64,000 nucleotides of DNA from Escherichia coli (lineage in GTDB: Bacteria > Pseudomonadota > Gammaproteobacteria > Enterobacterales > Enterobacteriaceae): the NCBI RefSeq assembly GCF_013315695.1, contig NZ_CP054353.1. One strand, written 5' to 3'. How positions within the stretch are numbered: position 1 is the first letter of the stretch; each line of letters opens with the position of its first letter. Positions 61,098 to 61,236 of this stretch are shown one piece after another. A model generated the notes under the pieces. It did no database searches. It was not told the origin of the DNA and saw only the letters and a program-made list of their open reading frames with translations. The position numbers and the translations under genes were made by a program.

Positions 61098-61236
61098 TTG
61101 CCGGATGCGGCGTGAACGCCTTATCCAGCACACATCTGGCAGCGGCTGTAGGTCTGATAAGACGCGTTAGCGTCGCATCAGACGTTTATTGCCGGATGCT
61201 GCGTTTGTATGCCTGATAAGCGTAGCGCATCAGGCA
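61098..61236. repeat. REP/BIME cluster (at least three REP-like palindromic units)
   Basis: Units gccggatgcggcgtgaacgccttatcc, ctgataagacgcgttagcgtcgcatcag and gcctgataagcgtagcgcatcaggc between convergent ruvX and yggR. Confidence 0.7.

What the first reader, a model, noticed from the sequence alone, without database searches (positions are those of the whole stretch)
61098..61236. REP/BIME cluster between convergent ruvX and yggR
At least three REP-like palindromes occur in a 140-bp span, a typical but strain-variable mRNA-stabilising and DNA-gyrase-binding element.
Basis: partly seen in the sequence, partly recalled or inferred. Interest (0 to 1): 0.2.

Follow-up and report, generated by a model that had tools for sequence, protein, structure and literature searches.

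The report
Ordinary E. coli REP/BIME repeat cluster
The 140-bp stretch is a routine cluster of E. coli's common "REP" hairpin repeats between the ends of two genes that face each other, varying between strains as such clusters usually do, so it is real but ordinary.

Summary
Window 61099-61236 holds three complete REP palindromes and one half-unit. They lie in the 212-bp spacer between convergent ruvX (60638-61054, +) and yggR (61267-62247, -) of an E. coli chromosome.

The units match the published y, z1 and z2 consensus sequences (28/28, 31/34 and 26/26 aligned bases), with no such match in any shuffle. Each folds into a stable bubble-containing hairpin on both strands.

The layout is y, a 13-nt linker, inverted z1, 6 nt, a truncated y, then inverted z2. 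This is an "atypical" BIME. It has no long linker and no IHF site, so it is not BIME-1. Its y/z2 unit is decayed, so it is not a canonical BIME-2. Only z1 keeps the GTAG head that the RayT transposase needs.

The locus varies strongly between strains. The spacer is 114-212 bp in eight sampled genomes, and this composite allele occurs in 180 of 5,426. One strain carries the REP-targeting IS621 in the z1 unit.

There is no intrinsic terminator, promoter or credible ORF inside. The most likely role is a two-way 3'-UTR hairpin barrier (partial terminator and exonuclease block). That role is inferred, not shown, and gyrase binding is untested. Already known; low interest.

The parts
60638..61054 (+). 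ruvX (yqgF) coding sequence. Its stop codon lies 44 nt upstream of the first REP unit.
   Evidence: RefSeq annotation of NZ_CP011134.1, 100% identical over window 60900-61400. ORF listed.
61070..61095 (.). Weak non-REP hairpin (TGGCGGAT...ATCCCGCCA) upstream of the REP block. It is not counted as a REP.
   Evidence: Folds at -9.6 kcal/mol, z = -2.3. Local alignment to the y, z1 and z2 consensus is no better than shuffles (287-1516 of 2000 shuffles score as well).
61099..61133 (-). y-type REP unit. Read on the + strand it is TGCCGGATGCGGCGTGAACGCCTTATCCAGCACAC, the iREP orientation. The head is degenerate: CACAC instead of CCTAC, so there is no GTAG on the - strand.
   Evidence: 1 mismatch in 30 to the y core, no shuffle matched. 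28/28 by BLAST, E=2e-11. Global alignment. Hairpin -16.4 kcal/mol (+) and -19.1 (-). Aligns to the first hairpin of the Rfam naRNA4 model.
61134..61146 (.). 13-nt short linker (ATCTGGCAGCGGC) between the heads of y and z1, a head-to-head junction. It is too short for the BIME-1 L linker and has no IHF motif.
   Evidence: Sequence read. No WATCAANNNNTTR match in 61055-61266.
61147..61183 (+). z1-type REP unit (TGTAGGTCTGATAAGACGCGTTAGCGTCGCATCAGAC). It is the only unit that keeps the GTAG head (61148-61151).
   Evidence: 31/34 identical to z1, E=9e-8. Alignment. Hairpin -18.4 and -19.3 kcal/mol, z = -6.1 and -7.5. All 12 stem pairs are invariant in the 6 strains that carry it. The orthologous unit is the IS621 insertion site in strain JL05.
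61190..61204 (-). Truncated y unit: 5' arm only (TGCCGGATGCTGCGT on the + strand), with the 3' arm and head deleted. It is a direct repeat of 61099-61113.
   Evidence: Direct repeat family D2, 94% identical at 91-nt spacing. 14/15 identical to y. Other strains keep 4 nt (K-12) or 18 nt (AVS0226) of this unit.
61205..61236 (+). z2-type REP unit (TTGTATGCCTGATAAGCGTAGCGCATCAGGCA). The core palindrome is perfect, but the head is GTAT instead of GTAG.
   Evidence: 0 mismatches in 25 to the z2 core, no shuffle matched. 26/26 by BLAST, E=3e-10. Hairpin -15.7 and -16.9 kcal/mol. A compensatory U-A to C-G stem pair is seen across strains.
61267..62247 (-). yggR (PilT/PilU-family ATPase) coding sequence. 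Its stop codon lies 30 nt from the z2 unit.
   Evidence: RefSeq annotation of the identical allele. ORF listed. Its 3' end is conserved across strains while the spacer is not.

Best explanation
This is a bacterial interspersed mosaic element (BIME) of the 'atypical' class. It is a cluster of E. coli repetitive extragenic palindromes: y, inverted z1, half of a y, and inverted z2. It fills the spacer between the 3' ends of ruvX and yggR.

Shown:
- the sequence identity to the REP family;
- the alternating orientation of the units;
- stable hairpins with an internal bubble on both strands;
- the extragenic position between convergent genes;
- dispersal of its units elsewhere in E. coli genomes;
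- heavy indel polymorphism between strains, with breakpoints at REP unit boundaries and short direct repeats.

Inferred origin: the units are products of the REP family, which the RayT (TnpA-REP) Y1 transposase acts on through GTAG-headed single-stranded hairpins. The ancestral layout was probably [y-z1][y-z2], and the second y has since been eroded to different extents in different lineages. Only z1 still has GTAG, so the cluster is largely decayed as a RayT substrate.

Inferred action: both convergent transcripts run into the array, so the hairpins form in both 3' UTRs. There they most plausibly impede 3'-to-5' exonucleases and cause partial, possibly Rho-assisted, termination. That would limit read-through into the opposing gene. 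I put this functional part at about 0.5. The identity as a REP/BIME is about 0.97.
For: - Consensus matches with no shuffle matching and BLAST E-values of 2e-11, 9e-8 and 3e-10 for y, z1 and z2. The consensus sequences agree with those printed in PMC11208160.
- Hairpin stability of each unit on both strands and of the whole spacer.
- Sub-threshold Rfam hits to naRNA4, a model that is itself a REP pair (39.9 and 37.6 bits, E=8e-6 and 3e-5).
- The 501-nt query has a median of 8 places per genome, and the z1 core matches unrelated loci.
- Classification follows PMC3333891: BIME-1 is y+z1 with a long linker, BIME-2 is y+z2 with a short linker, and atypical BIMEs are chimeras. GTAG and the stem mismatch are required by TnpA-REP.
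- No IHF motif in the spacer.
- No intrinsic terminator or promoter in the spacer, and no ORF longer than 37 aa.
- Strain variation: spacer of 114-212 bp with conserved flanks. The composite allele is in 180 of 5,426 genomes.
- Stems are kept across strains: 93.8% of cells paired against 21-44% in the slid controls, with 2 compensatory pairs.
- The REP-specific IS621 is inserted at GTAG of the orthologous z1 in strain JL05.
- rayT is present in 3,574 of 5,426 E. coli genomes, including VR50, which carries the identical allele.
- Functional framing comes from a 2026 preprint (10.64898/2026.03.23.713779): about 60% of REPs lie between convergent genes. REP325 is both a partial Rho-dependent terminator and an upstream-mRNA stabiliser. 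Convergent pairs with a REP are more highly expressed.
Against: - Nothing contradicts the identity.
- No transcript, half-life or binding data exist for this copy.
- The same preprint found no genome-wide difference in mRNA half-life for genes with terminal REPs, and found that 2-4 hairpin fragments were not Rho-sensitive.
- Strains with one full REP unit (AVS0226, 114-bp spacer) and with an IS621 insertion (JL05) are viable, so any function is dispensable or tunable.
- Two of the three heads lack GTAG, so current RayT activity here is doubtful.
- Whether the window's own genome encodes rayT is unknown. The window is not VR50 itself.
Confidence: 0.9

Rival explanations
1. The cluster is a neutral relic. 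REP units landed and decayed in a permissive spacer between two gene ends and have no effect on ruvX or yggR expression or on the chromosome.
For: - Two of three heads have lost GTAG, and one y unit is half-deleted.
- The spacer ranges from 114 to 212 bp, and one strain tolerates a 1,279-bp IS621 insertion.
- There is no genome-wide half-life effect of terminal REPs.
Against: - Stems are kept across strains with compensatory changes, although REP-subtype replacement could mimic this.
- Convergent gene pairs with REPs are more highly expressed genome-wide.
- No intrinsic terminator exists in the spacer, so something else must deal with convergent transcription.
Confidence: 0.3
2. The cluster acts mainly at the DNA level. 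It would be a gyrase (and Pol I) binding and cleavage site that relieves the positive supercoils built up by convergent transcription, acting as a topological insulator.
For: - The family literature lists gyrase, Pol I and IHF binding and topological insulation among REP roles (introduction of PMC3333891).
- A site between convergent genes is where positive supercoils accumulate. This is established knowledge, not tested here.
Against: - Gyrase cleavage was characterised on BIME-2, i.e. y + short linker + z2, usually in tandem (reference 9).
- Here the y partner of z2 is truncated to 15 nt, and the intact pair is y/z1.
- No binding data exist for this copy.
Confidence: 0.15
3. The cluster encodes a naRNA4-like nucleoid-associated non-coding RNA that works with HU to condense the chromosome.
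For: Rfam RF02564 (naRNA4) hits at 61151-61236 (-) and 61045-61130 (-), E=8e-6 and 3e-5.
Against: - The scores of 39.9 and 37.6 bits are well below the gathering score of 59.5.
- The model is itself just a y/z REP pair, so any REP pair resembles it.
- The second hit's distal hairpin is the non-REP hairpin with non-standard pairs.
- A 2026 preprint reports that REP325/naRNA4 does not measurably compact the nucleoid.
Confidence: 0.03
4. The spacer holds a small protein-coding gene, as annotated in some RefSeq genomes (a 42-aa 'hypothetical protein' in strain 0H26).
For: A RefSeq CDS, WP_001278270.1, lies across the REPs in 0H26, and similar calls appear in TOK-001 and another genome.
Against: - In the window the corresponding ATG is ACG (G at 61184), and no ORF longer than 37 aa lies in the spacer.
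- The reading frame runs through repeat units that are indel-polymorphic.
- This is typical of spurious ORF calls through REPs.
Confidence: 0.01
5. The hairpins are an ordinary bidirectional intrinsic (Rho-independent) terminator unrelated to the REP family.
For: Stable G+C-rich hairpins lie between convergent genes.
Against: - None of the hairpins is followed by a T-run. The scan finds no terminator-like site in 61055-61266.
- The sequences match the REP consensus nearly base for base.
Confidence: 0.01

Closest known systems
Atypical BIME (chimera of BIME-1 and BIME-2 parts; Bachellier/Gilson nomenclature as summarised in PMC3333891)
   Same: It contains y, z1 and z2 REP units in alternating orientation, joined by short linkers. 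It lies between genes and varies in unit number between strains.
   Different: One y unit is truncated to its 5' arm. Two of the three heads have lost GTAG/CTAC. I did not compare the linkers with the named motifs (S, s, l, r).
BIME-1 / RIB-RIP elements (y + z1 separated by the long L linker with an IHF site)
   Same: It contains a y/z1 pair in head-to-head orientation.
   Different: The linker is 13 nt, not the long L motif, and there is no IHF consensus (WATCAANNNNTTR) anywhere in the spacer. It is accompanied by further units rather than being a single pair.
BIME-2 (tandem y - S - z2 units; the gyrase cleavage substrate)
   Same: It has a z2 unit preceded by a y-derived sequence. Strain AVS0226 keeps a fuller version of this unit, with CTAC, a short linker and GTAG.
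   Different: Here the y partner is only 15 nt, and the unit is single rather than tandemly repeated.
REP325 / naRNA4 (Rfam RF02564)
   Same: Both are REP-pair RNAs with two bubble-containing hairpins. The Rfam model aligns to y and z1.
   Different: The scores are below the gathering threshold (39.9 against 59.5). REP325 is a 12-hairpin y/z2 array inside the yjdMN operon, whereas this is a 3.5-unit mixed array between convergent genes.
REP targets of IS621 / IS1397-type insertion sequences
   Same: The orthologous z1 unit in strain JL05 carries IS621, inserted at GTAG with the flank reading ATCAGGCCTAC, the published natural target.
   Different: In the window none of the three heads matches that 11-mer exactly: z1 reads ATCAGACCTAC, z2 ATCAGGCATAC and y ATCCAGCACAC. 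This allele is therefore a poorer IS621 target.

Membership tests
E. coli REP (palindromic unit) | Sequence match to the y, z1 or z2 consensus | tested here: met
   y: 1 mismatch in 30. z2: 0 mismatches in 25. z1: 31/34 identical, E=9e-8. No shuffle gave a match. The consensus sequences agree with those printed in PMC11208160.
E. coli REP (palindromic unit) | Imperfect palindrome of 20-40 nt with an internal mismatch bubble, able to fold as a hairpin | tested here: met
   All three units fold at -15.7 to -19.3 kcal/mol on both strands, each with an internal bubble; z = -3.4 to -7.5. The definition is taken from PMC3333891.
E. coli REP (palindromic unit) | Conserved GTAG tetranucleotide 5' to the foot of the hairpin (required by TnpA-REP) | tested here: inconclusive
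   GTAG is present only in z1 (61148-61151). The y unit has GTGT on the - strand and z2 has GTAT. Other strains have GTAG/CTAC at the same positions (O157, AVS0226), so the window copies are point-mutated members.
E. coli REP (palindromic unit) | Extragenic position, typically at 3' ends of transcription units | tested here: met
   The block lies in the 212-bp spacer between the stop codons of convergent ruvX and yggR. About 60% of REPs lie between convergent genes.
E. coli REP (palindromic unit) | Dispersed in many copies in the same genome | tested here: met
   The 501-nt query has a median of 8 and up to 18 megablast places per genome. The z1 core alone hits unrelated chromosomal positions. 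About 600 copies are reported for K-12. I did not count copies in the window's own genome.
E. coli REP (palindromic unit) | A RayT (TnpA-REP) gene in the same genome | tested here: inconclusive
   rayT is present in 3,574 of 5,426 complete E. coli genomes and in VR50, which has the identical allele. The window is from a different strain, and rayT is not in the window.
BIME (any class) | Two or more REPs in alternating orientation separated by short linkers | tested here: met
   The units read y (-), 13 nt, z1 (+), 6 nt, half-y (-), z2 (+).
BIME-1 (RIB/RIP) | A single y + z1 pair separated by the long L linker, often with an IHF site | tested here: not met
   The linker is 13 nt. No WATCAANNNNTTR motif lies in 61055-61266. 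Additional units are present.
BIME-2 | y + z2 pairs with the short S linker, in tandem copies | tested here: not met
   There is only one y/z2 unit, and its y is truncated to 15 nt with no head-to-head linker left.
Rfam RF02564 naRNA4 | Score at or above the curated gathering threshold (59.5 bits) | tested here: not met
   The best scores are 39.9 and 37.6 bits.
REP function: mRNA 3'-end stabiliser / partial terminator | Transcript 3' ends or protected fragments at the hairpins, and changed upstream mRNA level on deletion | not testable with these tools
   No expression data are available here. The role is inferred from the family literature.
REP function: DNA gyrase binding | Gyrase binding or cleavage at the element | not testable with these tools
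   This is a family-level attribution only.

The most novel reading that the evidence does not exclude
The rare composite allele in the window (y-z1 plus half-y-z2, in 180 of 5,426 genomes) could be more than neutral variation. It may be a natural 'dial' that changes 3'-end formation and abundance of the essential ruvX (yqgF) mRNA and of yggR, compared with the common K-12-type or the minimal AVS0226-type alleles. This spacer may also be a recurrent hotspot of REP turnover through slippage between REP arms, gene conversion between REP subtypes, and IS621 capture.
Probability: 0.12. Interest if true: 0.25.

Novelty: already known. Interest (0 to 1): 0.07.

Why it matters
It matters little on its own. 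REP/BIME clusters are among the best-catalogued non-coding repeats of E. coli, and this one behaves as expected. It is useful in three minor ways:
- It marks this spacer as repeat DNA, not as a gene, small-RNA gene or terminator.
- It explains why short 'hypothetical protein' calls appear here in some RefSeq genomes.
- It offers a compact natural allele series (114 to 212 bp, plus an IS621 insertion) for testing how REP number affects expression of convergent genes.

Tried and rejected
- **Fifth REP.** I asked whether the hairpin at 61070-61095 is a fifth, degenerate REP. Its alignment to y, z1 and z2 on either strand is no better than shuffles. The second Rfam hit that spans it is carried by the y unit. 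Rejected.
- **IHF site / BIME-1.** No IHF consensus lies in the spacer. Rejected.
- **Intrinsic terminator or promoter.** None in the spacer.
- **Coding potential.** The longest ORF is 37 aa, and the start codon of the ORF annotated in 0H26 is lost in the window. Rejected.
- **naRNA4 membership.** The scores are below the gathering threshold. Rejected.
- **K-12 catalogue name.** I looked for the catalogue name of this REP in K-12. In the stretches I viewed, the RefSeq copy of NC_000913.3 listed only genes and pseudogenes, including 5000-6600, where I recall a REP element being annotated in the original K-12 record. Absence from the table is therefore uninformative.
- **Locus-specific literature.** Supplement searches in two papers found nothing on yqgF, ruvX or yggR, and a literature search for yggR plus REP found nothing relevant.
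- **First scan attempt.** A fuzzy-regex REP scan timed out and was replaced by blastn-short.
- **Source strain.** I assumed the window was strain VR50. It is not: VR50 lacks the two IS1 copies seen in the window. The argO::IS1 junction points to an MSB1_4I-like strain.

Full report
**Context.** The window is Escherichia coli chromosome. Window 60900-61400 is 100% identical to strain VR50 (NZ_CP011134.1) and matches 5,425 of 5,426 complete E. coli genomes at lower coverage or identity. RefSeq annotation of the identical allele gives four genes. They are yqgE (window 60075-60638, +), ruvX/yqgF (60638-61054, +), yggR (61267-62247, -) and yggS (from 62265, +).

**The observation.** The spacer sequence was read, and I searched the window with the three E. 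coli REP consensus sequences.
- The y core matches at 61100-61129 (+) with 1 mismatch in 30.
- The z2 core matches at 61211-61235 (-) with 0 mismatches in 25. No shuffle of the window produced either match.
- The z1 consensus has 4 mismatches and so escaped the 3-mismatch search. BLAST finds it at 61148-61181 (-), 31/34 identical, E=9e-8.
- A fourth piece, TGCCGGATGCTGCGT at 61190-61204, is the 5' arm of a y unit (14/15 identical). It is a direct repeat of 61098-61113 at 91-nt spacing.

I first wrote the consensus sequences from memory. They agree with the REP query sequences printed in the methods of PMC11208160, and I repeated the unit-by-unit alignments against those printed forms.

Each full unit folds on both strands into a hairpin with the characteristic internal bubble, at -15.7 to -19.3 kcal/mol and z = -3.4 to -7.5. 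The whole spacer folds far better than shuffles, with z = -4.8 on the + strand and -6.15 on the - strand.

**Anatomy.**
- 61099-61133: y unit. Its head is degenerate (CACAC instead of CCTAC).
- 61134-61146: 13-nt linker.
- 61147-61183: z1 unit in the opposite orientation, with GTAG intact at 61148-61151.
- 61184-61189: 6-nt spacer.
- 61190-61204: y 5' arm only.
- 61205-61236: z2 unit in the z1 orientation, with a perfect core but a GTAT head.

A weaker hairpin at 61070-61095 is not REP-like. Its alignment scores are no better than shuffles and it folds at z = -2.3. The spacer contains no sigma-70-like promoter and no hairpin followed by a T-run. It has no IHF consensus and no ORF longer than 37 aa.

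Rfam's only hits are to naRNA4 (RF02564), a model built from a REP pair of REP325. They score 39.9 and 37.6 bits against a gathering score of 59.5. This is independent support for REP identity, but the element is not a member of that RNA family.

**Classification.** PMC3333891 defines three BIME classes:
- BIME-1: y + z1 with a long L linker, often carrying an IHF site, as a single copy.
- BIME-2: y + z2 with a short linker, in tandem copies.
- Atypical BIMEs: chimeras of these parts.

Here a y/z1 pair has a short linker and no IHF site, and a decayed y/z2 unit follows it. This is an atypical BIME.

The same paper shows that TnpA-REP (RayT) needs both the GTAG head and the stem mismatch. Only z1 keeps GTAG, so most of the cluster is probably no longer a RayT substrate. 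rayT itself is in 3,574 of 5,426 complete E. coli genomes and in VR50. I could not establish it for the window's own strain.

**Strain variation.** I compared eight alleles. The ruvX and yggR ends are nearly invariant, while the spacer is 114 to 212 bp long. The differences fall at REP unit boundaries or short direct repeats:
- K-12, 0H26, O157 and O26 have y and z1, only 4 nt (TGCC) of the second y, and a third REP of a different subtype (GCCCGAT...ATCGGGC).
- S115 lacks the 5' part of the first y. Relative to the O157 allele this is a 27-nt deletion between two ACGCCTTAT repeats.
- AVS0226 has only a partly deleted y plus z2.
- MEI3O has y, unrelated sequence and the third REP.

The window allele looks like the O26-type left part joined to the AVS0226-type right part. 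It is consistent with an ancestral [y-z1][y-z2] array whose second y was eroded to different extents in different lineages. This reconstruction is inference.

A junction-spanning query (61140-61266) is covered at 80% or more in only 180 of 5,426 genomes, so this composite allele is a minority form.

Across the eight alleles the three stems stay paired in 93.8% of cells, against 21-44% in the slid controls. There are two compensatory pairs. This is weak evidence, and it could equally reflect replacement of one REP subtype by another.

One strain, JL05, carries a 1,279-bp IS621 between ruvX and yggR. It is inserted immediately after GTAG of the z1 unit, and the flank reads as the published natural target ATCAGGCCTAC. 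This again confirms that mobile elements recognise these units as REPs. In the window, none of the three heads matches that 11-mer exactly.

**How it most likely works.** The following are shown:
- It is a REP/BIME.
- It forms strong hairpins on either strand.
- It sits where both convergent transcripts must end.
- No classical terminator is present.

The rest is inferred from family-level work. In RNA, the hairpins probably act in both 3' UTRs as blocks to 3'-to-5' exonucleases and as partial, sometimes Rho-assisted, terminators. This would limit convergent read-through.

A 2026 preprint reports the following:
- About 60% of E. coli REPs lie between convergent genes.
- About 30% of convergent spacers carry a REP.
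- Convergent pairs with a REP are more highly expressed.
- There is no general half-life effect, and 2-4 hairpin fragments show no Rho sensitivity.

Any effect here is therefore probably modest and context-dependent. I give the functional reading about 0.5 and the neutral-relic reading about 0.3. It is untested here and less likely for this architecture.

**Comparison and novelty.** The element is the same kind of thing as the hundreds of catalogued E. coli BIMEs. It meets the sequence, structure, position, dispersal and alternating-orientation criteria. It fails the BIME-1, BIME-2 and naRNA4 criteria, and its GTAG criterion is only partly met because of point mutations. Nothing about it is unexpected. 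Novelty: already known. Interest: low (0.07).

**Things seen in passing.**
- The window has two IS1 copies in direct orientation 14.3 kb apart. One lies next to an argO reading frame shorter than the intact VR50 gene, a junction shared by only three complete genomes.
- There is an ERIC-like inverted pair.
- There is a solitary degenerate y REP after a terminator-like hairpin near 55,050.

Noticed in passing
window 21961-22742 and 36252-37030: Two IS1 copies (782 bp, 99.6% identical, with InsA/InsB reading frames) lie in direct orientation 14,291 bp apart, a layout like a composite transposon. The left copy lies 6 nt from an argO reading frame (21461-21955, -) that is shorter (164 aa listed) than the intact 636-bp argO of VR50. 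VR50 has no IS1 here. The exact argO::IS1 junction occurs in only 3 of 5,426 complete genomes (NZ_OZ547117.1, NZ_LR898874.1 MSB1_4I, NZ_AP022030.1), all rich in IS1.
   Followed up: partly
window 9516-9641 and 25169-25293: A 126-bp inverted repeat pair, 96% identical and 15.5 kb apart. From memory the sequence (…TTCGAGTTGCAGGAAGGCG…GTGAATCCC…) resembles the ERIC/IRU enterobacterial intergenic repeat. I did not check it against a consensus.
   Followed up: no
window 55011-55078: A terminator-like hairpin with a T-run (GCCAGCCTCGCGCTGGCCTTTTTCTTTT) is followed directly by a solitary, degenerate y-type REP (GGATAGGCGTTCACGCGGCATCCGGCA; 22/23 identical to the y consensus, E=5e-6). It is the only other clear REP in the 64-kb window.
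   Followed up: partly
L009 (NZ_CP049936.1, strain JL05) 1655-3109: IS621, the IS110-family bridge-RNA recombinase element, is inserted as exactly 1,279 extra bases in the ruvX-yggR BIME. It sits immediately after GTAG of the z1 unit, and the flank reconstructs the published target ATCAGGCCTAC.
   Followed up: yes
L003 (NZ_CP081782.1, strain 0H26) 462-590, minus strand: RefSeq annotates a 42-aa 'hypothetical protein' (WP_001278270.1) running through the REP units. Similar calls appear in two other genomes. Its ATG is ACG in the window (G at 61184), and the frame crosses indel-polymorphic repeats, so it is probably a spurious gene call.
   Followed up: partly
E. coli complete genomes (search with L011 1138-1635): The REP-associated transposase gene rayT is found in only 3,574 of 5,426 complete E. 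coli genomes, as a single copy. The hits fall into identity bands of >=99% (1,288 records), 95-99% (679) and 90-95% (1,614). About a third of genomes that carry REPs have no rayT detectable by megablast.
   Followed up: no
alignment A1, columns 196/214 (window 61214/61232): The third REP of this spacer exists in two forms that differ by a compensatory stem pair: GCCTGAT…ATCAGGC in the window and AVS0226, and GCCCGAT…ATCGGGC in the K-12-type alleles. The loops and the sequence between the REP and the yggR stop codon also differ. This suggests whole-unit replacement rather than point mutation.
   Followed up: partly
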